From a phage, in the sequence record PZ445431.1: a DNA stretch of 64,000 bases. One strand, 5' to 3'. The notes below the pieces were generated by a model. The model searched no databases and was not told where the DNA came from. It worked only from the letters and a program-made list of their open reading frames with translations. A program made the position numbers and the translations under genes. How positions within the stretch are numbered: position 1 is the first letter of the stretch; the number at the start of each line of letters is the position of its first letter. Shown one piece after another: positions 1,489-56,981 of this stretch.

Positions 1489-2163
1489 ATGGGTCGACAA
1501 AAGCTAACAATAAAAGATATAAATACTAGATTAGCTGATCGTGGAATCCAAATTGTCTGTGAATATGTAAACCAACGTACAAAAACAGTATTTAAATGCC
1601 AGAGAGCACACGTTTGGGAAGCAACGCCACATTCTATACTCCATATTAAGAGGGGTTGCCCACACTGCGCACCTAATACTATATTGCTAGATGAAGTTAA
1701 TAACAGGATATCCAGTATAGGGTATACACTGTTAAATAACTATACTAATGCAAAAACAAAACTACATCTACGCTGTAATAATGGTCATGAATGCTATATT
1801 ACCTTAGATGGGTTGACGCAAGGTAGAAGATGTCCTTATTGCTCCCTTAAATGGGATAATGGTGGATTTCTCTATATCATGTCCTCTTCTATGGGTACTA
1901 AAGTAGGTATAAGTTTATACCCCGAGAAGCGATTGAACGAGGTTAAAAGAGAGTCTGGATTTTCAGATCTATACTTATTTACCACGTATCACTTACCTGA
2001 TAGAGAAACTGCTCTAGATTTAGAAAAAGAAGTCCATAGAGAATATTATAATAAAAACTGTGGGTTTTCAAAATTTACAGGAAGCACAGAATTTTTTAAT
2101 GTTGCTCCAGAGGATATAGTAGTCTTTCTAAGTAACTTTGGATTGGAGGAATATGGCCACTAA
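1489..2163 (+). CDS. free-standing endonuclease-like protein, T5orf172/GIY-YIG-related domain with N-terminal Cys-rich repeats
   Basis: C-terminal GGFLYIMSS...KVGIS...KRL pattern typical of T5orf172 domain; CPHC and CPYC zinc-ribbon-like motifs; inserted between terminase and portal. Confidence 0.55.
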   Translation: MGRQKLTIKDINTRLADRGIQIVCEYVNQRTKTVFKCQRAHVWEATPHSILHIKRGCPHCAPNTILLDEVNNRISSIGYTLLNNYTNAKTKLHLRCNNGHECYITLDGLTQGRRCPYCSLKWDNGGFLYIMSSSMGTKVGISLYPEKRLNEVKRESGFSDLYLFTTYHLPDRETALDLEKEVHREYYNKNCGFSKFTGSTEFFNVAPEDIVVFLSNFGLEEYGH

Positions 2164-6408: not shown

Positions 6409-6978
6409 ATGGCAGGAAAAGCGATACCTTATGAAATAAGGGAAAAGCAAATTCTAGAAATTTGCGAAAAAGAAGGGTATGTATATAAAGGGGTGGTTGG
6501 TAACTTTAAGAATTCAGAATCCAAAATACTGATAGAATGCACTAAGGATGGTAATTGTTGGACTCCACGCATACGTAATTTTGTCAATACTGGTTCACGA
6601 TGTCCAAAATGTTGTCAAACACGTTTTTTGAAGGCAAAAGAAAATAAAGTAGTCTCTATAGAAGATACTCCTGCTATTTTTTATATTCAAAGATTGACTA
6701 ACAATTATCACTCAGTTCTAAAATATGGAATAACTTCCCGAAATATTGATGTTCGGATTAGAGAACAATCACGAGTATCAGCCTATACTCACGAACTACT
6801 CCTATCAGTGCAACTACCTTCTAGACAGGAGGCATTTATGTTAGAAGCCTTAGTAAAACAGTCTATTCCTTCTGGGTTTCTTACTCCTGCTCTTCTCCCT
6901 GATGGGTATACAGAAACCTGTCTTGAAAAATACCTGCCAGAGATAAAACATATAGTTTATAATTATATGTTTTCCTAG
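6409..6978 (+). CDS. free-standing endonuclease-like protein (T5orf172/GIY-YIG-related) with Cys-rich N-terminus
   Basis: 189 aa; CPKCC motif; AIFYIQRL...KYGITSRNIDVRIREQ resembles T5orf172-type core; inserted between capsid and head-completion genes. Confidence 0.45.
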   Translation: MAGKAIPYEIREKQILEICEKEGYVYKGVVGNFKNSESKILIECTKDGNCWTPRIRNFVNTGSRCPKCCQTRFLKAKENKVVSIEDTPAIFYIQRLTNNYHSVLKYGITSRNIDVRIREQSRVSAYTHELLLSVQLPSRQEAFMLEALVKQSIPSGFLTPALLPDGYTETCLEKYLPEIKHIVYNYMFS

Positions 6979-30697: not shown

Positions 30698-31228
30698 TTA
30701 CTTATCTAAGTCCTCACGTCGGCAAATATATCCTTTGAATAGTTCTTGCCTGGAATCCATACCTAGATGCTGTGCTCTAAGTTCGTTAGCTTTATTTATA
30801 GCTAACTCTAATTCTTCATAAGGGAATAACCCACCATATATTTTAACACCTATACAGTTAGTTATTTCTACTTTCCATTTAGAAGAGTTAGTATCCCAGT
30901 GTATACCTAAGTATCCCGAAGTACTTCTAGTGTTTCTATTTCTGCAGTTTTGCTGATGTGTGGTCTCTCGCAAGTTATTCCACCTATTATCCCATCTTAT
31001 ACGATTAATATGGTCTATCTCTTCAGGAAACCTGCCTTCCATGTATAGGAAGGCTAGCCTATGCGCAGGATAAGATATTTTATCTATTTTTATATAGACA
31101 TAACCATTAGAATTACGAGACCCAGCAATACTTCCTTTTGCAGCTCTACCTTTAGCTACTCTACGAGTAAAATCACCTGTATCTGGATTATACTCGAAAA
31201 GTTCTTTGAGCTTATCTTGTGTTATCAT
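30698..31228 (-). CDS. HNH homing endonuclease
   Basis: 176 aa; HRLAFLYMEG...IDHINRIRWDNRWNNLRETTHQQN HNH core; paralog of ORF 56466-56981. Confidence 0.7.
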   Translation of the reverse strand: MITQDKLKELFEYNPDTGDFTRRVAKGRAAKGSIAGSRNSNGYVYIKIDKISYPAHRLAFLYMEGRFPEEIDHINRIRWDNRWNNLRETTHQQNCRNRNTRSTSGYLGIHWDTNSSKWKVEITNCIGVKIYGGLFPYEELELAINKANELRAQHLGMDSRQELFKGYICRREDLDK

Positions 31229-47331: not shown

Positions 47332-47421
47332 TAAAATTTTTCCGAAGGTGCTATCAGTGTCCTTGAGCACAGAGAAAACCGAGTCATTTTGACTCGGTAA
47401 TCAGGATTGAGCTAATGAAAA

Positions 47422-47817
47422 TCAATCATCATTTAGGCCTGGGACATAGATTCCAATGCGATTTAATTGACCTTTAGCTTCTTCGAGAATATCTTCGGTG
47501 TACTCCCAAATATCATCTTCTACTTGCAAAAGATAAGGGGATTCACCAGTTTCGGGGTCACGTGTAATGGCTAAGCCACGTGGATGGAATATAGAGAAGT
47601 TGAGGGCAACAATCAAGCCCATACTGGACAATTCATTCCAGTCAGCTTCCCAACCATCATCTTCATCTTCGTCCACAAAGACACCTACACTAGGGTCTGT
47701 TACAGAAGTAAACGGAAATGTTACACTAACCTTGTCAACCCCCAACCAACGTGCAAGGAGCCCTTCAGCACGCTCTACCAAACTAGGATCTATCTGACGC
47801 CAAAATACTTGTTCCAT
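47422..47817 (-). CDS. hypothetical protein, tandem paralog B
   Basis: 131 aa; shares W-E-W-EL-MGL-ALN...TGE-P...QV...W-Y-E...L-R-G...PGL pattern with adjacent ORF. Confidence 0.4.
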   Translation of the reverse strand: MEQVFWRQIDPSLVERAEGLLARWLGVDKVSVTFPFTSVTDPSVGVFVDEDEDDGWEADWNELSSMGLIVALNFSIFHPRGLAITRDPETGESPYLLQVEDDIWEYTEDILEEAKGQLNRIGIYVPGLNDD

Positions 47818-47826
47818 TCTGCCTCC

Positions 47827-48255
47827 TTAAGCAGTTAAACCTGGGATCATATACCCGAAACGACGAAGTTTCTGAATCCCCTCATTTACTTCCTCGGGCG
47901 AATATGACCAGCCCTCACTTTCATTTACCTGGAAAGCAGGAGCTTCACCAGTGCGATAATTTACAATAAGACGGTGATTTGCAGGCATAAACAGCTTATG
48001 GTTCAAGGCAAAAACCAGACCCATTTCATCGAGTTCTTTCCAGTCTACAATCTCTTCTACTCCCTCCCCTAAATCCACGCTAACTCCAATACACGGAGCT
48101 TCCTCTAGTGGGCCTTTAAAAGACAGGAAGATATCGTTATTCTCACACCAAATCTTAAGCAGATTGATGGTTTCATTGTACATACCATTAGGGAGAGAAC
48201 GCCAGAAGTTGAGGAGCATAGGATTTACCTCTTTCATGAAAATATTATTGAACAT
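47827..48255 (-). CDS. hypothetical protein, tandem paralog A
   Basis: 142 aa; paralogous to 47422-47817. Confidence 0.4.
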   Translation of the reverse strand: MFNNIFMKEVNPMLLNFWRSLPNGMYNETINLLKIWCENNDIFLSFKGPLEEAPCIGVSVDLGEGVEEIVDWKELDEMGLVFALNHKLFMPANHRLIVNYRTGEAPAFQVNESEGWSYSPEEVNEGIQKLRRFGYMIPGLTA

Positions 48256-48257
48256 GC

Positions 48258-48797
48258 TTATACCTTAAGTTTCTGAAGAGCCTTACACATTTCAAGATCT
48301 GGACTAAATTCCAGCATATAGCTTATAGCATTTAAATCTTGAAGGTTTATTCCAGTCCTGCCATTTACAATAACAGTAGGAAATTGGTACATCATAGCAC
48401 CAGCATCATCTAGGACGCACCAATGCTTGAGCTTATGTTTTTCTACGAAACGTAAGACAGAATTACCTCGAGATAAACCACCTCCAGTAAAATCTGTTGT
48501 ACCAAGAAAACGATCGATCAAACCGAGTCCGGTCATAATCTGAACGTTCTCCATTTCATTTCGTACAGAAAACCATGAAGAGACCCCAACAATCATTATT
48601 GGGGAGGGTTTAAGAAAGTTCTGAAAAGCCTGGAGTAATGGCTTATAAACCCAATCACTGCCAAAGAACAGCTTTTCACTGTCTGGAGCATAATGGTGAG
48701 AGATGCTCGAATTGAGCACCCCATCAATATCCAGGAAAATCACAGGAGTATTACTTATTTCCACCAGTAGCATCCCACGTCCAGACTTTAACTTCAT
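48258..48797 (-). CDS. HAD-superfamily phosphatase
   Basis: HAD motif I VIFLDIDGVLN and motif IV VLDDAG. Confidence 0.5.
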   Translation of the reverse strand: MKLKSGRGMLLVEISNTPVIFLDIDGVLNSSISHHYAPDSEKLFFGSDWVYKPLLQAFQNFLKPSPIMIVGVSSWFSVRNEMENVQIMTGLGLIDRFLGTTDFTGGGLSRGNSVLRFVEKHKLKHWCVLDDAGAMMYQFPTVIVNGRTGINLQDLNAISYMLEFSPDLEMCKALQKLKV

Positions 48798-48936
48798 CAG
48801 TAAAAGGAACTGGAACCTTCAATTCACCTTTACCCCACATAACAGATAGGAACAGAGAATAAATGGTAATCATACCGATTAGGTTGACAAACCATACTAG
48901 ACCTTTCCAGATACCCTTAAAAATCTTCTTCACCAT
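48751..48936 (-). CDS. small single-pass membrane protein
   Basis: ATG at 48936 preceded by AAGGAGGG; hydrophobic helix LVWFVNLIGMITIYSLFLSVMW. Confidence 0.35.
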   Translation of the reverse strand: MVKKIFKGIWKGLVWFVNLIGMITIYSLFLSVMWGKGELKVPVPFTDEVKVWTWDATGGNK

Positions 48937-49076
48937 ATTCTCCCTCCTTAATAAGGAACTCTTTCCATTCTGCTGTATCCTCATAGATAACGCAGAAATC
49001 ATCACTCTTCCATGAGAAGTCATCGGTAGCAAATTCGAAACGGTAGCACCAACTACCGTCCGGCCATACTAAAAGA

Positions 49077-49928
49077 TCACACATGCTCTTGCGGTGCATA
49101 AATAGTTCCTTCCATAAAGGCTTCTACTTGACCAATGAAATGCTTGTTACCAAAAACTTCGGCAGCTCCAGCCCGCCATACAGTAACACCACGTTTCTCA
49201 TACTCAAGCTGTTCATCATAACGAACTTGAGGGTTAACAACCATCATCTTAGTTCCACGACATACAGCAGGAAATAGCTCCCAGTTGAAGTCGATTACTT
49301 GGTTGCTACAACCTACTACAATAACCATATCATTGCTAGTAAGTGTATCAAACAGGTTAATCTGACCCATATACCACGGAGCCGTCTCACCAAAGAATGT
49401 TACGTTTGGTTTTACCCATTCGTAATCCTCAGGGGCAATCGCAGTATACCCAACATCTTCGATGATTTGGTTGCGACCCTGACGATAGATCACCTCTTTC
49501 AAGTACCCGTGAGCGTGAATGATTTCATCACGAGGGATACCAGCACGTTCCAGAAGGTCATCAACGTTAGTAGTGAAGTTCTTCACGCTATCCGCACCAT
49601 AACGCTGGAACCATTCTGCAATTCGCAGATGGGCAATGTTAGGCTCAACAGTCTGTAATTCCTGACGACGCATGTTGTAGAACTCATGAGTCTTGAGATA
49701 CAGATCGTTACCATCTTTATCAATGCCAGGGAAACGAGCACTGAAGTAGTTAGGATCATCTTCACCACAGAAGCGACGGAAGCCAGCTTCAAAGTTAGGC
49801 AAGCTACATACTTCCTCTAGATCGTACTCATCCCACAAGGATTTCCCACTAGCAGTATCAGTACGGAAAGCACGAACACCACTATCTACACTCAAACCTG
49901 CACCACTAACAACGATTAGTCTACGCAT
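49077..49928 (-). CDS. Sir2 (sirtuin)-fold protein lacking the zinc-ribbon module
   Basis: 283 aa; GAGLSVDSGVRAFR, TTNVDDL, IHAHG, VTFFGE and VIVVGCS match sirtuin Rossmann motifs; no Cys4 zinc site. Confidence 0.6.
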   Translation of the reverse strand: MRRLIVVSGAGLSVDSGVRAFRTDTASGKSLWDEYDLEEVCSLPNFEAGFRRFCGEDDPNYFSARFPGIDKDGNDLYLKTHEFYNMRRQELQTVEPNIAHLRIAEWFQRYGADSVKNFTTNVDDLLERAGIPRDEIIHAHGYLKEVIYRQGRNQIIEDVGYTAIAPEDYEWVKPNVTFFGETAPWYMGQINLFDTLTSNDMVIVVGCSNQVIDFNWELFPAVCRGTKMMVVNPQVRYDEQLEYEKRGVTVWRAGAAEVFGNKHFIGQVEAFMEGTIYAPQEHV

Positions 49929-50122
49929 TATACGATTCCTTGCTTGAATCCTTCGATGATATTTTGGAGCAGAATTGCTTCTTCTGGGCGAACCTTCTCT
50001 TGCTTAATAAGCATATCCAAACCAGCAATACAGGTAGCTACTCCAGCATTATACCCAGCATTCCACTGCTCCATGAGCATATTTTCTAAATTACTTTTTA
50101 GATTCTGATTCAAGAAGTCCAT
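49928..50122 (-). CDS. hypothetical protein
   Basis: ATG at 50122 with GGAGG SD; stop overlaps Sir2 start. Confidence 0.3.
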   Translation of the reverse strand: MDFLNQNLKSNLENMLMEQWNAGYNAGVATCIAGLDMLIKQEKVRPEEAILLQNIIEGFKQGIV

Positions 50123-50294
50123 AAAGTTTTTCCTCCAATTCCATAATACGATTTTCGTAAGAAGCACGCAGCTTCTCGATGGACAAAGCACGAACTGTAA
50201 CTTCATCTGAATTGATCGCTAGCTGAGCTAGATCTTCTGTTTCCATACGTCCGTTGTAAATTAAGCGATATTTAAGATGTTTTACGTTTTTCAT
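50091..50294 (-). CDS. hypothetical protein
   Basis: 67-aa ORF in operon. Confidence 0.3.
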   Translation of the reverse strand: MKNVKHLKYRLIYNGRMETEDLAQLAINSDEVTVRALSIEKLRASYENRIMELEEKLYGLLESESKK

Positions 50295-50303
50295 TCTTGT
50301 TCC

Positions 50304-50585
50304 TTAGTTCTGTACTGTAAATTCATTCTTATCACAGTGAGCATAATAATACCCATACATACGATAAATTTTCACAGCCTTAGTAGACCCCTTCGATTCT
50401 TCATAATCAATCCAGAGCCACTTGTCTTTACCTACATAATGTACCCGAAACTTCTTAACTTTCTTATCATTCCATGTTGCAACAACACGACGATAATCAA
50501 ATCCGCCCAACCAATCTAGAGCCTTACGTTCTTCACTAGGCTCTCCAAGATGGGAAACATCTACTTTTGGAAGCAATTCGCTCAT
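50304..50585 (-). CDS. hypothetical protein
   Basis: 93-aa ORF; first gene after promoter, SD GAGGAGAAAG. Confidence 0.4.
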   Translation of the reverse strand: MSELLPKVDVSHLGEPSEERKALDWLGGFDYRRVVATWNDKKVKKFRVHYVGKDKWLWIDYEESKGSTKAVKIYRMYGYYYAHCDKNEFTVQN

Positions 50586-50613
50586 AGCTTTCTCCTCTCA
50601 AATTTATAAATCA

Positions 50614-50642
50614 ATTATACATAAGTTTTAGTTCGAAAGCAA
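50614..50642 (-). promoter_or_regulatory. T5-type early promoter
   Basis: minus strand TTGCTT - 17 nt - TATAAT followed by TTTATAAATTTGAGAGGAG. Confidence 0.6.
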
Positions 50643-50652
50643 ATAAAATAAA

Positions 50653-50677
50653 AGCCAGGTCGACTAGCAACCTGGCT
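50653..50677 (-). terminator. rho-independent terminator after nrdD
   Basis: AGCCAGG ... CCTGGCT stem; on minus strand followed by TTTATTTTATTT. Confidence 0.6.
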
Positions 50678-50683
50678 GATTCA

Positions 50684-52558
50684 TTATTTAGCGCGAATGT
50701 CTTGATGTTTCACTCGACCCATAACCTCATGTTGTTTACCTGGGTTAAACGGACGAGCACCTGGATTTCCAAGATATCCACAAACTCGACGAGTTACCTC
50801 AAGAGTCTCAGGATCATGGTTGCCACAAATAGGGCATTTGAAACCATCCTCAGAAGCTATAGTTTCACCCAAGAACCCACATTCCCCACAAGAGTCTACT
50901 GGAGTATTAATACCGAAGTAATGAACTTTACTTGCAGCATAGTTAATAACCCATTCCAGTGCATCAGGGAATCGTTTCATATCCGGTAATTCCACATAGG
51001 AAATGCACCCACCAGAAGCAATAGGAGTAAAGTTAGACTCATAATCAAACTTCACATTTGGAGCAACCTTACGTTCTACATCAAGGTGATGGGAATTAGT
51101 GTAATATCCTTTAGCCAGAATATCTTCATGCTCTGGGAAATACTCACGGTCTAGGCGACAGAAGCGATCACATAGAGATTCAGATGGTGTAGCATACAGA
51201 CTATACCCTAATTGAGTCTCTTCCTTCTTCTGATCAGCACGATCACGCATGTATTGTAGCACACGTTGAACGAACTTGATACAAGACTCAGACATTGTAT
51301 CTACATCTTTACCAAACATGAGTTGCAACATTTCGTGGCAGCCAATATATCCTAGGGATACAGAAGCACGCTTGTAGAAATGATCAAACACATATTCATC
51401 TGGCCCCAGACGTAATCCAAAGGCTCCTGACGTATAGAGGATGGGCGCAGCTTTAGCTTGAATGTATTTTAAGCGATCAACCCTCCACTCCAATGCTTTT
51501 AACGCGGTATCCACACGCAGCTCAAGCAGATCGAAGAATAGATCAATATTTCCTTCCGCTTCGATAGCGATTCGAGGAAGGTTTACGGAAACAACGCCTA
51601 AGTTGTTACGACCAGAAGTTTCACCATCTTCCGCAGCAGCCAGGAATGAACGACAGCCCATAGAGACTTTGTAGTCCCCCGTAACTTCTACAACCTTATC
51701 ATAACTGATGTAGTCAGGATACATACGTTCAGCAGTACATTTCATAGCTAACTTCTTGATATCATAGTTAACATCACCAGGTTTCATGTTTACGCCCTCA
51801 CGCAAAACAAATACCAGTTTAGGGAAGATAGCTGTACGTTTATTGATACCCAAACCATCCATACGTACTTCTAGTATTGCTTTCTGTACAAGACGTGCTT
51901 CCCAAGAAGTTCCTAGACCAAAACCAAAGGTAATAAACGGACTTTGACCATTAGAGTTGAACATCGTATTGATTTCATACTCCAGGCCCTGACAGGCATC
52001 GTAAACTTCTTTCTCAGTCATTTCCGTAGCCATTACAGATGCTTTAGCTTCATCCTTAGTCCAACGCTTTGCAAACGCATGATTCTTATCATAAGACTTA
52101 CGAACATAAGGAGCCAATACTTCATCTAATCGGTCTACAGAAGTACCCCCATATTGATGTGAACTAACCTGAGTGATAATCTGAGCTGTGATAGCAGCCG
52201 CAGTAGTAATAGAGTTTGGTGTACTGATTTCAGCATTACCAACCTTCATACCATTCTTCAACATATCTTCCAAAGCAACCAGGCAACAGTTAGTCATACC
52301 TAACGCAGCGTAATCAGCATCATGGAAGTGAATATCACCAATCATGTGAGCATTTCGAATCTGGATTGGCATTTCTTCCAGAATCAGATATTTACTCAAT
52401 TCCCCTGCAAGCATATCCCTTTGTGTAGGGAAACGTTCTGAGGGCTTATTGGCATTATTAAACAGCAGCTCTTCATCTGCTGAACCTTCGATAATTTCTT
52501 TGCAGTTTCGAATCAAGGACTGCATTCCTTTATACTTTAGTTCTTCATTGCGATTCAT
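50684..52558 (-). CDS. nrdD: anaerobic ribonucleoside-triphosphate reductase
   Basis: 624 aa; C-terminal zinc ribbon CGECGF...CPICG and glycyl-radical motif RRVCGYLG. Confidence 0.85.
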   Translation of the reverse strand: MNRNEELKYKGMQSLIRNCKEIIEGSADEELLFNNANKPSERFPTQRDMLAGELSKYLILEEMPIQIRNAHMIGDIHFHDADYAALGMTNCCLVALEDMLKNGMKVGNAEISTPNSITTAAAITAQIITQVSSHQYGGTSVDRLDEVLAPYVRKSYDKNHAFAKRWTKDEAKASVMATEMTEKEVYDACQGLEYEINTMFNSNGQSPFITFGFGLGTSWEARLVQKAILEVRMDGLGINKRTAIFPKLVFVLREGVNMKPGDVNYDIKKLAMKCTAERMYPDYISYDKVVEVTGDYKVSMGCRSFLAAAEDGETSGRNNLGVVSVNLPRIAIEAEGNIDLFFDLLELRVDTALKALEWRVDRLKYIQAKAAPILYTSGAFGLRLGPDEYVFDHFYKRASVSLGYIGCHEMLQLMFGKDVDTMSESCIKFVQRVLQYMRDRADQKKEETQLGYSLYATPSESLCDRFCRLDREYFPEHEDILAKGYYTNSHHLDVERKVAPNVKFDYESNFTPIASGGCISYVELPDMKRFPDALEWVINYAASKVHYFGINTPVDSCGECGFLGETIASEDGFKCPICGNHDPETLEVTRRVCGYLGNPGARPFNPGKQHEVMGRVKHQDIRAK

Positions 52559-52667
52559 TATACCCTCCTTCTCTAACTAAGACTACTATTATAACTCATT
52601 CGAAGGCGGATGTCAACAATATTTTACTATAAAGTTCTGTAACATGATCTGAGTCAAAAAATTTTAT

Positions 52668-52696
52668 TTGCCAACCTCTACTAAAAATAGTATAAT
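52668..52696 (+). promoter_or_regulatory. T5-type early promoter
   Basis: TTGCCA - 17 nt - TATAAT. Confidence 0.5.
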
Positions 52697-56465: not shown

Positions 56466-56981
56466 TTGATAACACAAGATGAATTAAAAAGGATTCTGGA
56501 GTATAATCCAGATGAAGGAACATTTACTTGGTTAAATAACCAAGAAGTACACAATAAAGTAAGAGGACTACCTGCTGGTTGTTTAAAACCCCACTCAGTA
56601 GATCCTAACCGAAAAGACTTAGTAATACAAATCAATGGTAAGAAATATCCTGCACAAAATATTGCTTTCCTGTACATGACAGGAAACTTACCTAAAGTTA
56701 TGGTTGATCATATAGATGGAGATTCACTAAACTATAAGTGGACTAATCTAAGAGAAGCAGACTGGCAGTTAAATAGTCAAAATAGAAAAACCAGTAAAAA
56801 CAATATATTGGGTACTAAGAATATTCGGAAGAAAGGGTCTGGATTTCAAGTTAGAAAATCCATTAACGGAAAAGAATACGTGAAAACTCTTCCAACTCTC
56901 GAAGAGGCGATAGAGTATCGAGATTCTTTAATCCTCTCTATAACCAAAGACCCAACACTACTTAGAAACACAGATAAATAG
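56466..56981 (+). CDS. HNH homing endonuclease inserted between nrdA and nrdB
   Basis: 171 aa; TTG start; N-terminus ITQDELKRILEYNPDEGTF paralogous to 30698-31228; HNH core VDHIDGDSLNYKWTNLR. Confidence 0.7.
   Translation: MITQDELKRILEYNPDEGTFTWLNNQEVHNKVRGLPAGCLKPHSVDPNRKDLVIQINGKKYPAQNIAFLYMTGNLPKVMVDHIDGDSLNYKWTNLREADWQLNSQNRKTSKNNILGTKNIRKKGSGFQVRKSINGKEYVKTLPTLEEAIEYRDSLILSITKDPTLLRNTDK

What the first reader, a model, noticed from the sequence alone, without database searches (positions are those of the whole stretch)
49077..49928. Zinc-ribbon-less Sir2-like (NAD-binding) protein in an early operon
The protein carries sirtuin signature blocks in order: GAGLSVDSGVRAFR (cf. GAGIS..SGIP.FR), TTNVDDL (cf. 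TQNID.L), IHAHG (catalytic His context), VTFFGE and VIVVGCS. The Cys4 zinc-binding insert between the HG and FGE blocks is absent. Zn-less Sir2 domains are characteristic of NAD-cleaving or ADP-ribosylating enzymes rather than classical deacetylases, so this could deplete or redirect host NAD+, modify a host protein, or interfere with NAD-based defence signalling.
Basis: partly seen in the sequence, partly recalled or inferred. Interest (0 to 1): 0.7.

Follow-up and report, generated by a model that had tools for sequence, protein, structure and literature searches.

The report
Phage T5-like sirtuin without zinc cysteines
This is a real, apparently active CobB/SIRT5-type sirtuin gene of a T5-like coliphage that has lost its zinc-binding cysteines but kept the fold; it is already annotated in hundreds of phage genomes, and what it acts on has never been tested.

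Summary
The ORF is real: 283 aa on the minus strand, 49077-49928. The window is Escherichia phage TrudiRoth/Bas30 (MZ501109.1, bases 483-64482), and the gene is bas30_0054, already annotated "Sir2-like protein".

It is a canonical sirtuin by sequence and fold:
- Pfam SIR2, E 1.4e-21.
- Best solved relative is E. coli CobB.
- There is no PADLOC hit.

The 36-residue beta module between HG and FFGE is present and confidently folded; only its four cysteines are gone. The catalytic His, Asn and Asp, the class III Tyr-x-x-Arg and the acyl-pocket positions are conserved. The Gln of TQN is Thr.

This Cys-less, TTN clade occurs in about 970 phage records. The gene sits next to a HAD "Swiss-army-knife" RNA-end phosphatase. 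In other phage families its orthologues lie among RNA ligase, polynucleotide kinase, cREC and phosphoesterase genes, as Iyer et al. (2022) reported when they predicted a Tpt1-like RNA-repair role.

The phage also has an NAD-dependent DNA ligase and the NARP3 NAD+-rebuilding pathway, which argues against NAD+ depletion.

My ranking: acyl-lysine deacylase chemistry 0.45, RNA 2'-phosphate removal about 0.27, NADase about 0.07. The gene is known and untested. Interest is modest.

The parts
49077..49928 (-). Sir2-like CDS, 283 aa plus stop; this is bas30_0054 / QXV85294.1 of phage TrudiRoth
   Evidence: ORF; Pfam SIR2; 100% identity to annotated 'Sir2-like protein' genes; window identical to MZ501109.1 483-64482
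49863..49904 (-). NAD-binding block GAGLSVDSGVRAFR (aa 9-22)
   Evidence: G9, A10, G11, S13, S16, G17, F21 and R22 are invariant in 36 homologues. They are shared with the Cys4 relatives
49701..49778 (-). Variable 26-aa insertion (aa 51-76) in the helical small domain; it is absent from T5-type alleles and from many other alleles
   Evidence: Alignments; the 10-residue block pLDDT means over this stretch are 83-88
49668..49679 (-). Tyr84-x-x-Arg87, which aligns with Y92/R95 of CobB (the class III anion-binding pair)
   Evidence: Alignment to CobB; Y84, R87 and R88 invariant; R87 present in 29/34 Zn-less and 58/77 Cys4 representatives
49554..49574 (-). TTNVDDL (aa 119-125): the Asn and Asp of the nicotinamide pocket are kept, and the Gln of TQN is replaced by Thr
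   Evidence: T120 is Thr in 34/34 of the Cys-less clade and Gln in 77/77 of the Cys4 clade
49506..49517 (-). H138-A-H140-G141, with the catalytic His in its HG context
   Evidence: H140 and G141 are invariant in all 111 classified representatives
49398..49505 (-). Cys-less three-stranded beta module (aa 142-177), the counterpart of the zinc ribbon
   Evidence: Length and motifs; strands 141-150, 153-158 and 172-176 with block pLDDT means of 90-95
49386..49397 (-). FFGE loop (aa 178-181), the substrate-staple and NAD loop of sirtuins
   Evidence: F178, F179 and E181 invariant; F179 and E181 shared with the Cys4 relatives
48258..48797 (-). HAD 'Swiss-army-knife' RNA-repair-type phosphatase. Longest ORF is 179 aa; the annotated start is at 48764, giving 168 aa. 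DIDGV and LDD motifs are present
   Evidence: Pfam HAD_SAK_2 PF18143, E 2.5e-18; the linkage to Sir2 is also seen in T5, EC100 and Erwinia phage KEY
48917..49099 (-). 60-aa ORF that overlaps the 3' end of the Sir2 gene by 23 nt (phrog_5116); function unknown
48751..48936 (-). 61-aa ORF (phrog_11166) between Sir2 and the HAD gene; function unknown
49928..50122 (-). 64-aa ORF directly upstream; its stop overlaps the Sir2 start codon (TAATG), which suggests translational coupling
50091..50585 (-). Two further small upstream ORFs of the cluster, 67 aa and 93 aa; function unknown
47422..48255 (-). Two tandem DUF7415 paralogues (142 and 131 aa) that close the cluster
   Evidence: Pfam PF24187, E 9e-37 and 3.1e-28; about 31% identity between the two paralogue types, measured as cross-matches to the EC100 copies
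50614..50642 (-). Promoter-like TTGCTT-17 nt-TATAAT, followed by a GAGAGGAG ribosome-binding site, in front of the first ORF of the cluster
   Evidence: Read directly from the sequence; the automatic scan missed it because the -35 hexamer matches only 3 of 6 positions
50653..50677 (-). Terminator-like hairpin (10 pairs, T-run) just after nrdD; it marks the upstream boundary of the cluster
47378..47398 (-). Terminator-like hairpin (9 pairs) that marks the downstream boundary of the cluster

Best explanation
bas30_0054 encodes a catalytically competent canonical sirtuin of the CobB/SIRT5 (class III-like) type. In its phage lineage the four zinc-ligand cysteines have been replaced, while the small beta module they normally staple has been kept.

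I expect ordinary sirtuin chemistry. The enzyme binds NAD+. A substrate oxygen attacks C1' and nicotinamide leaves. His140 then helps the ribose 2'-OH resolve the adduct. One NAD+ is therefore consumed for each group removed from a macromolecule; this is not bulk NAD+ hydrolysis.

The most likely substrate is an acyl-lysine, possibly one with an acidic acyl group. The reason is that the acyl-pocket positions and the Tyr-x-x-Arg pair of CobB/SIRT5 are preserved.

Biologically it is a non-core accessory gene, inferred to be early. It is co-transcribed with a HAD RNA-end phosphatase, so the target probably belongs to, or serves, the RNA-repair and translation sphere.

What is shown: family, fold, retention of the module, residue conservation and gene linkage. 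What is inferred: activity, substrate, timing and role.
For: - Catalytic set: GAG, S13, F21, R22, N121, D123, H140 and G141 are invariant in 36 homologues and shared with the Cys4 relatives.
- Acyl pocket: the positions engineered in CobB acyl-selectivity variants (A76, Y92, I131, V162, V187; PDB titles) map through the alignment to C41, Y84, V122, I154/I155 and V176. All are conservative changes. R95 maps to R87.
- Module retained.
- Not a defence NADase or SirTM.
- NAD+ economy: the phage has an NAD-dependent ligase and NARP3 in the same genome.
- Accessory status: the T5 orthologue T5.102 and the HAD gene T5.105 scored 'Not Fit' in a CRISPRi-ART screen.
Against: - No member of this phage clade has been assayed.
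- The zinc module is reported as required for deacetylation by canonical sirtuins (PMC12700824). Loss of the ligands, together with the clade-wide Gln->Thr change in TQN (34/34), shows altered constraints.
- Scores against the curated CobB models are far below cut-off: 71-88 bits against cut-offs of 243-320.
- The repeated neighbourhood of RNA ligase, polynucleotide kinase, cREC, phosphoesterase, 2H and HAD genes in unrelated phages is not what a generic protein deacylase predicts. It is the basis of the published RNA-repair prediction (PMC9503650).
- The CRISPRi-ART screen also called the T5 primase 'Not Fit', so it is insensitive.
Confidence: 0.45

Rival explanations
1. RNA-repair sirtuin, as predicted by Iyer, Burroughs, Anantharaman and Aravind (2022). 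The enzyme uses NAD+ the way Tpt1/KptA does. An RNA 2'-phosphate, left after a 2',3'-cyclic end is opened, attacks C1' of NAD+. The ADP-ribose 2''-OH then displaces the RNA and gives ADP-ribose 1''-2'' cyclic phosphate. The neighbouring HAD-SAK phosphatase either prepares the RNA end or clears the product. The role would be to restore tRNAs or other RNAs cut or blocked by host anticodon nucleases and toxins.
For: - The HAD_SAK_2 gene lies two small ORFs downstream. The linkage holds in T5 and EC100. In Erwinia phage KEY it holds with the gene order inverted.
- In Vequintavirus and Mydovirus phages the orthologues (46-58% identity) lie beside Rnl1-type RNA ligase, an AAA_33 polynucleotide kinase, cREC_REC and Metallophos genes.
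- In jumbo phage PHA46 the gene sits between a 2H-superfamily gene and a Nudt16-like Nudix gene.
- Several loci abut tRNA gene arrays.
- No macrodomain is linked.
- Sirtuin and Tpt1 chemistries are formally parallel (established mechanisms; inference). Retention of His140 and of an anion-binding Tyr/Arg pair is compatible with this reading.
- The published prediction is PMC9503650, section 3.7.3.
Against: - No sirtuin has been shown to act on RNA.
- The tunnel-lining residues that admit a thin lysine chain are conserved. It is not obvious how a nucleotide-borne phosphate would reach C1'.
- The protein and its close homologues are acidic: pI 4.85, net charge -15, homologue range 4.6-6.05.
- No RNA ligase or polynucleotide kinase is annotated in the roughly 85 kb of the TrudiRoth genome that I examined. 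Healing would therefore have no phage-encoded sealing step.
- The 2H neighbour in PHA46 scores best as Acb1 (anti-CBASS), not as an RNA-repair enzyme.
- The Phapecoctavirus locus showed no RNA-repair neighbours.
Confidence: 0.27
2. Macromolecular mono-ADP-ribosyltransferase. The sirtuin transfers ADP-ribose from NAD+ onto a host or phage protein, or onto a nucleic-acid end, in order to take over or protect a process. This would be comparable to SirTM or the T4 Alt/Mod enzymes.
For: - The NAD+ site is intact.
- The clade-specific Gln->Thr change and the loss of the Zn ligands suggest a shift in function.
- The variable insertion next to the substrate cleft and the allele turnover (51% identity to the T5 allele, against 89-97% for the flanking genes) are typical of host-interaction genes.
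- Reviews note ADP-ribosyltransferase activity for some sirtuins (PMC9503650).
Against: - The defining SirTM features are absent: HG is retained rather than QG, and there is no linked macrodomain.
- In SirTM, restoring His abolished activity.
- No ADP-ribose-reversing enzyme is annotated in the cluster.
Confidence: 0.1
3. NADase or NAD-signal interference. The enzyme hydrolyses NAD+ to shut down the host, or it destroys or diverts NAD-derived immune signals.
For: - The zinc cysteines are missing, as they are in the SIR2_2 NADases.
- In some phages the orthologue lies near anti-signalling genes: an Acb1-like gene directly upstream in PHA46 and an Acb2/Tad1-hairpin gene 4 kb away in a Phapecoctavirus.
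Against: - The beta module is retained, not absent.
- Only PF02146 is matched, and there is no PADLOC hit at E<=1.
- The same phage depends on NAD+ for its DNA ligase and carries NARP3, which has been shown to rebuild NAD+.
- Sirtuin chemistry needs nicotinamide as the leaving group, so cyclic ADPR-type signals are not plausible substrates (inference).
Confidence: 0.07
4. A catalytically dead binding protein or decoy, for example an NAD+/ADPR binder or a mimic that titrates a host factor.
For: Loss of the structural zinc site could be read as decay. The gene is dispensable in a laboratory screen of T5.
Against: Every catalytic and NAD-binding residue is invariant across homologues down to about 55% identity and in about 970 phage records. 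The model is confidently folded.
Confidence: 0.03

Closest known systems
E. coli CobB (PDB 1s5p, 6rxj) and other class III sirtuins (SIRT5, Sir2-Af1, PfSir2A)
   Same: These are the best sequence and structure matches. The Rossmann domain plus small-domain architecture is the same. GAGxS, FR, N/D, HG and FGE are conserved. Tyr-x-x-Arg and the acyl-pocket positions are conserved. The length of the beta module is similar.
   Different: No zinc-ligand cysteines. TQN is TTN. GTS is GCS. A 26-aa insertion lies in the helical module. Identity is only about 27%, and scores are far below the NCBIfam CobB cut-offs. The gene is phage-encoded. Activity is untested.
The 'distinct clade of viral sirtuins' of Iyer et al. 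2022 (PMC9503650), neighbourhood type 3, typified by Escherichia phage SP15 (sirtuin plus HAD Swiss-army-knife phosphatase)
   Same: The domain pair matches that paper's type-3 description: a sirtuin with a HAD-SAK neighbour and no macrodomain. I did not examine SP15 itself. I reproduced the paper's type-2 neighbourhood (Rnl1, kinase, cREC, phosphoesterase) and something like its type 1 (2H, Nudix).
   Different: Nothing in kind; this gene appears to be a member. The paper's functional claim (Tpt1-like 2'-phosphate removal) is a prediction only. I did not find the cysteine loss or the Gln->Thr change mentioned in the passages I read.
SirTM (class M, macrodomain-linked ADP-ribosylating sirtuins)
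   Different: SirTM has QG in place of HG, keeps a zinc-coordinating domain, and is operon-linked or fused to a macrodomain. None of these holds here.
SIR2_2 defence NADases (ThsA, DSR1/2, SIR2-HerA, short-pAgo SIR2, KomC, Avs5, FAM118)
   Same: No zinc cysteines; a role in phage-host conflict.
Tpt1/KptA RNA 2'-phosphotransferase
   Same: Possible functional analogy. Both would run a two-step NAD+-dependent removal through a 1'',2''-cyclic ADP-ribose species, and both occur in RNA-repair gene contexts.
   Different: The fold is unrelated (ART-like against Rossmann sirtuin). The analogy is inferred and has not been demonstrated.

Membership tests
Canonical sirtuins (Pfam SIR2, PF02146) | Significant match to the family model | tested here: met
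   E 1.4e-21, 77.7 bits against a gathering cut-off of 24
Canonical sirtuins (Pfam SIR2, PF02146) | Rossmann large domain plus a small domain made of a helical module and a beta-sheet module | tested here: met
Canonical sirtuins (Pfam SIR2, PF02146) | Catalytic His in the HG motif, plus the Asn and Asp of TQNxD and the GAGxS / FR NAD-binding motifs | tested here: met
   H140, G141, N121, D123, G9-A10-G11, S13, F21 and R22 are invariant. The Gln of TQN is Thr
Canonical sirtuins (Pfam SIR2, PF02146) | Cys4 structural zinc site in the beta module | tested here: not met
   No Cys in aa 142-177. The first Cys pair of the Cys4 relatives aligns to query Y148 and G151. Actual metal content cannot be tested here
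Canonical sirtuins (Pfam SIR2, PF02146) | NAD+-dependent lysine deacylase activity | not testable with these tools
   Needs an enzyme assay. No experimental report was found
Class III sirtuins (CobB / SIRT5) | Tyr-x-x-Arg pair that binds the acidic acyl group | tested here: met
   Y84 and R87 align with CobB Y92 and R95 and are invariant in 36 homologues
Class III sirtuins (CobB / SIRT5) | Equivalog-level match to the curated CobB models | tested here: not met
   NF040867 71.3 bits against 320; NF001753 87.7 bits against 243
SirTM (class M) | HG replaced by QG | tested here: not met
   H140-G141 are invariant. The definition is from PMC4518038
SirTM (class M) | Adjacent or fused macrodomain | tested here: not met
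   No macro domain among the eight other ORFs of the cluster or in the orthologous loci examined
SIR2_2 defence NADases (ThsA / DSR / SIR2-HerA type) | Match to SIR2_2 or to defence-system models | tested here: not met
   Only PF02146 at E<=1; no PADLOC family at E<=1
SIR2_2 defence NADases (ThsA / DSR / SIR2-HerA type) | Small domain purely helical, with the zinc/beta module missing altogether | tested here: not met
Viral RNA-repair-associated sirtuin clade (Iyer et al. 2022) | Phage sirtuin in a conserved neighbourhood with RNA-end-processing genes (here HAD-SAK) and no macrodomain | tested here: met
   HAD_SAK_2 two ORFs downstream. The linkage is kept in T5, EC100 and KEY. Rnl1, PNK, cREC and Metallophos contexts are seen in the Vequintavirinae
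Viral RNA-repair-associated sirtuin clade (Iyer et al. 2022) | NAD+-dependent removal of RNA 2'-phosphate (the predicted activity) | not testable with these tools
   Prediction only (PMC9503650); no assay exists

The most novel reading that the evidence does not exclude
A canonical-fold sirtuin whose real acceptor is not acyl-lysine but a phosphorylated or otherwise blocked RNA end. It would be a sirtuin analogue of Tpt1/KptA. Together with the HAD-SAK phosphatase it would form a ligase-independent, 'healing-only' module. That module would clean tRNA or other RNA ends damaged by host anticodon nucleases or tRNA-end-modifying toxins, and the NAD+ cost would be covered by the phage's own NARP3 pathway. 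This was predicted in silico in 2022 and has never been demonstrated.
Probability: 0.27. Interest if true: 0.75.

Novelty: already known. Interest (0 to 1): 0.33.

Why it matters
About 970 sequenced phages carry a homologue of this gene (tblastn; the T5-like, Vequintavirinae and jumbo-phage copies I inspected are Cys-less and TTN). These include T5-likes, rV5-likes, Phapecoctavirus-type phages and jumbo phages, some of them therapy candidates. No member of the clade has been assayed.

If it is a deacylase, it would show that the sirtuin zinc site is dispensable when the beta module is stabilised in another way. It would also point to acyl-lysine remodelling as a phage strategy.

If it acts on RNA ends, it would add a new acceptor class to sirtuin chemistry and a new RNA-repair route that counters tRNA-directed immunity.

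Either way, it places a stoichiometric NAD+ consumer in a phage that also rebuilds NAD+. That matters for interpreting NAD+-centred phage-host conflicts.

For this scan the finding is ordinary. The gene is correctly recognisable, already annotated, and already covered by a published comparative-genomic hypothesis.

Tried and rejected
1. A second homologue search with the alignment as query returned the same close set. It told me nothing about whether the nearest Cys4 relatives are phage or cellular.
2. The proteins from the representative library cannot be used for context look-ups, so the origin of the 77 Cys4 'IGY/KPNV' relatives stays open.
3. A Pfam scan of the Phapecoctavirus neighbours and of the small ORFs in the window gave nothing informative.
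4. Literature searches for an experimental study of a T5-like or any phage CobB-like sirtuin found none. The HIDEN-SEQ preprint does not mention it.
5. The T5 CRISPRi-ART fitness data call both Sir2 and HAD 'Not Fit'. The same screen misses the primase, so I give this little weight.
6. A search for work on the role of the TQN glutamine (SIRT5 Q140L) found nothing. The effect of Gln->Thr is left open.
7. There are no tRNA genes and no Rfam families in the window.
8. I considered an alternative zinc site built from the four remaining Cys (41, 54, 207, 223) and rejected it. Only C41 is invariant and C207 varies (C/S/A); C54 and C223 are not conserved, and the four lie in different parts of the sequence.
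9. My first queries used 49077-49925 on the minus strand, which drops Met1 and keeps the stop. This was corrected to 49080-49928 from then on and has no effect on the conclusions.
10. Atomic coordinates of the model are not available to scripts, so pocket geometry and electrostatics could not be examined.
Full report
**Observation.** Window 49077-49928 holds an ATG-to-TAA ORF of 283 codons on the minus strand. The similarity to sirtuins is far beyond chance:
- Pfam SIR2 (PF02146), E 1.4e-21, 77.7 bits against a cut-off of 24.
- PHROG 2162 'Sir2 (NAD-dependent deacetylase)', E 7.6e-107.
- E. coli CobB as the best solved relative, E 1.6e-16.

**Identity of the sequence.** The window is identical to Escherichia phage TrudiRoth (Bas30, Demerecviridae, Epseptimavirus; MZ501109.1) positions 483-64482, with 0 mismatches over the 46 kb compared. 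The ORF is bas30_0054, deposited as 'Sir2-like protein'. The same or near-identical gene is annotated as Sir2-like or NAD-dependent deacetylase in 224 phage records at the DNA level. Homologues occur in 974 phage records at the protein level: T5-likes, Vequintavirinae, Phapecoctavirus/Justusliebigvirus-type myophages, and Vibrio, Salmonella and Escherichia jumbo phages. As an observation, the gene is not new.

**Fold and family.** An AlphaFold2 model built from 36 homologues is confident (pLDDT 87.9, pTM 0.87).
- Foldseek against the PDB puts CobB first (E 2.4e-15, TM 0.82 on the target), followed by Sir2-Af1, SIRT5 and Sir2Tm.
- No PADLOC defence model matches at E<=1.
- NCBIfam CobB models match, but far below their curated cut-offs.

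The answer is a divergent canonical sirtuin, closest to class III.

**The zinc module.**
- Thirty-six residues lie between HG and FFGE. Cys4-bearing relatives mostly have 36-47, and the aligned CobB segment is of similar length.
- The segment keeps the central (D)[IV]GY and terminal KPNV motifs of those relatives.
- It is modelled as three strands, with 10-residue block pLDDT means of 90-95.
- Only the ligands are gone. Query Y148 and G151 occupy columns that are Cys in 77/77 and 75/77 of the Cys4 relatives.
- The protein's four cysteines (41, 54, 207, 223) lie elsewhere and do not form a conserved alternative site.

According to PMC12700824, the sirtuins that are NADases (SIR2_2) lack this module altogether. 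According to PMC4518038, the ADP-ribosylating SirTM class keeps a zinc domain and is defined by HG->QG plus a linked macrodomain. So 'no cysteines' does not place this protein in either group.

**Clade signature.** I aligned 144 representatives from a search of 1.84 billion proteins (1554 hits at E<=1e-3).
- 34 combine TTN with at most one Cys in the module.
- 77 combine TQN with at least three Cys.
- 33 are mixed.

Both main groups share GAG, S13, S16, G17, F21, R22, W32, F83, Y84, R88, P96, N97, H100, T119, N121, D123, H138, H140, G141, P174, F179, E181, G206 and V211. R87 is Arg in 29/34 and 58/77. The clade-specific changes are Gln->Thr at position 120 (34/34 against 0/77), loss of the cysteines, and GTS->G(C/S/A)S.

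The positions mutated in acyl-selectivity variants of CobB are A76, Y92, I131, V162 and V187 (PDB titles). Through the alignment they map to C41, Y84, V122, I154/I155 and V176. All are conservative changes. The class III Tyr-x-x-Arg is intact. The active site therefore looks like that of a working deacylase with an anion-binding pocket. This is inference from alignment; I could not inspect coordinates.

**Local context.** The gene sits in a tight nine-ORF minus-strand cluster (50585 to 47422).
- The upstream ORF's stop overlaps the Sir2 start codon (TAATG), and the next ORF overlaps the Sir2 3' end.
- The cluster follows a terminator-like hairpin after nrdD (50677-50653) and ends at another (47398-47378).
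- A TTGCTT-17-TATAAT promoter-like element with a strong ribosome-binding site precedes it at 50642-50614. I read it directly from the sequence; the automatic scan missed it.
- Two small ORFs downstream lies a HAD_SAK_2 protein (PF18143, 'HAD domain in Swiss Army Knife RNA repair proteins', E 2.5e-18), followed by two DUF7415 paralogues.
- The surrounding genes are nrdD, PhoH, nrdAB, DHFR, thymidylate synthase, primase, helicase and a split NAD-dependent DNA ligase. This is the T5-type early replication and nucleotide arm. Expression timing is inferred, not shown.

**Context elsewhere.**
- The Sir2 and HAD-SAK pair is kept in T5 itself: T5.102 is Sir2 and T5.105 belongs to phrog_1818, the PHROG family that the window's HAD protein matches best.
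- It is kept in Tequintavirus EC100.
- In Erwinia phage KEY it is kept with the order inverted.
- In Vequintavirus and Mydovirus phages the orthologues (46-58% identity, also Cys-less and TTN) lie among an Rnl1-type RNA ligase, an AAA_33 polynucleotide kinase, a cREC_REC protein, Metallophos phosphoesterases and a DNA ligase. In the Vequintavirus EmilHeitz the cluster also lies beside a tRNA gene array.
- In jumbo phage PHA46 the Cys-less TTN orthologue lies between a 2H-superfamily gene and a Nudt16-like Nudix, 3 kb from NAMPT and an NMNAT-like gene.
- A Phapecoctavirus locus and a 133-kb metagenomic phage were uninformative.

These results reproduce the neighbourhoods described by Iyer, Burroughs, Anantharaman and Aravind (Viruses 2022; PMC9503650, section 3.7.3). 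[quoted passage not shown] It includes a type in which the sirtuin is joined by the Swiss-army-knife HAD phosphatase (prototype Escherichia phage SP15), and it proposes a KptA/Tpt1-like removal of RNA 2'-phosphates.

**NAD+ economy.** TrudiRoth needs NAD+ for its DNA ligase. It also carries Bas30_86/87 (NadR-like plus PnuC-like), about 20 kb away and outside the window. These two proteins have been shown experimentally to rebuild NAD+ after depletion by Sir2-HerA, the NARP3 pathway (PMC13464706). A phage-encoded bulk NADase would work against this. A stoichiometric NAD+ consumer fits.

**Function.** No experimental study of this clade turned up. In a T5 CRISPRi-ART screen the Sir2 and HAD orthologues scored 'Not Fit'. 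That is consistent with an accessory role, but the screen also missed the primase.

I rank the readings as follows.
1. Retained sirtuin deacylase chemistry on an acyl-lysine, possibly an acidic acyl group, with a target linked to the RNA-repair and translation sphere: 0.45. The support is the conserved catalytic set, the tunnel positions, Tyr-x-x-Arg and the closest-fold evidence.
2. Tpt1-like removal of RNA 2'-phosphate or another RNA-end transaction: 0.27.
   - For: the recurrent neighbourhoods and the formal parallel between the two chemistries.
   - Against: the narrow lysine-type tunnel, an acidic protein (pI 4.85, net charge -15), no phage RNA ligase or kinase annotated in the roughly 85 kb of the genome I examined, and a best hit to Acb1 for the '2H' neighbour in PHA46.
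3. Macromolecular ADP-ribosyltransferase: 0.10.
4. NADase or signal interference: 0.07.
5. Inactive binder: 0.03.

**Novelty and score.** The gene is already annotated. Its clade and gene neighbourhoods are published, and so is a mechanistic hypothesis.
- The clade-wide coupling of cysteine loss with Gln->Thr.
- The conserved acyl-pocket and Tyr/Arg positions.
- The structural ranking against SirTM and the defence sirtuins.
- The mosaic divergence of the Sir2 allele.

The open question of what phage sirtuins act on is real but not new. Interest is 0.33 and novelty is 'already known'.

**Dead ends and caveats.**
- The profile search returned only the close set.
- The origin of the Cys4 'IGY/KPNV' relatives could not be determined.
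- The role of the TQN glutamine could not be documented.
- My first queries dropped Met1 because I trimmed the wrong end of a minus-strand range. This was corrected and has no effect on the results.

Noticed in passing
window 48258-48797 (-): PHROG phrog_18062 is labelled 'Sir2 (NAD-dependent deacetylase)' but matches the C-terminal half (aa 88-179) of the HAD_SAK_2 protein. Several GenBank records (Stitch, AKFV33 orf108, SaI_NFG_5581, SHSML-45, DT57C) annotate the HAD gene as Sir2. This looks like an annotation-transfer error from the neighbouring gene. Other records call it 'RNA repair protein'.
   Followed up: partly
window 47422-52558 (-) compared with L015 (Tequintavirus EC100): Divergence is mosaic. 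NrdD is 97% identical at the protein level, the 67-aa ORF 95.5% and HAD 89%, but Sir2 is only 51%, the 60-aa ORF 59.5% and the DUF7415 pair 73%. The Epseptimavirus Sir2 allele is closer (56-62%) to the alleles of ~150-kb myophages than to T5's. The T5-type allele lacks aa 51-76 and has a 12-aa insertion after aa 232. This suggests allele replacement or fast evolution at this locus.
   Followed up: partly
window 47422-47817 and 47827-48255 (-): Two tandem paralogues carry DUF7415 (PF24187; E 3.1e-28 and 9e-37). They are about 31% identical between paralogue types (cross-matches to the EC100 copies), and both are conserved in T5 (T5.106/T5.107). T5.107 was the only gene of this cluster scored 'Fit' in the CRISPRi-ART screen. 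Function unknown.
   Followed up: no
L012 4510-4956 (Salmonella jumbo phage PHA46): The gene directly upstream of the sirtuin is annotated 'RNA ligase', but its best Pfam match is Acb1 (anti-CBASS 2H phosphodiesterase, PF23474, E 1.7e-16). A Nudt16-like Nudix lies downstream, and NAMPT plus an NMNAT-like gene lie 3 kb upstream. This leaves open a nucleotide-signal theme, rather than RNA repair, for that neighbourhood type.
   Followed up: no
window 50614-50642 (-): A TTGCTT-17 nt-TATAAT promoter-like element followed by a GAGAGGAG ribosome-binding site lies just after the nrdD terminator hairpin. The automatic scan missed it because the -35 hexamer matches only 3 of 6 positions.
   Followed up: partly
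window 52588-52696, both strands: Divergent near-consensus sigma-70 promoters lie between nrdD and PhoH: TTGACA-17-TATAAT (12/12) on the minus strand and TTGCCA-17-TATAAT (11/12) on the plus strand. They are typical of the strong T5 early promoters.
   Followed up: no
MZ501109.1 69803-71537, outside the window: The same phage carries the experimentally characterised NARP3 pair, Bas30_86 (NadR-like) and Bas30_87 (PnuC-like), and more than 25 tRNA genes. Vequintavirus-type phages place NadR-like and PnuC-like genes only about 4-6 kb upstream of their sirtuin.
   Followed up: partly
window 1489-2163, 6409-6978, 30698-31228 and 56466-56981 (annotated in MZ501109.1): Several putative homing endonuclease genes interrupt conserved modules, for example between the terminase and the portal and between nrdA and nrdB. 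In an rV5-like locus an HNH gene is inserted directly upstream of the sirtuin.
   Followed up: no
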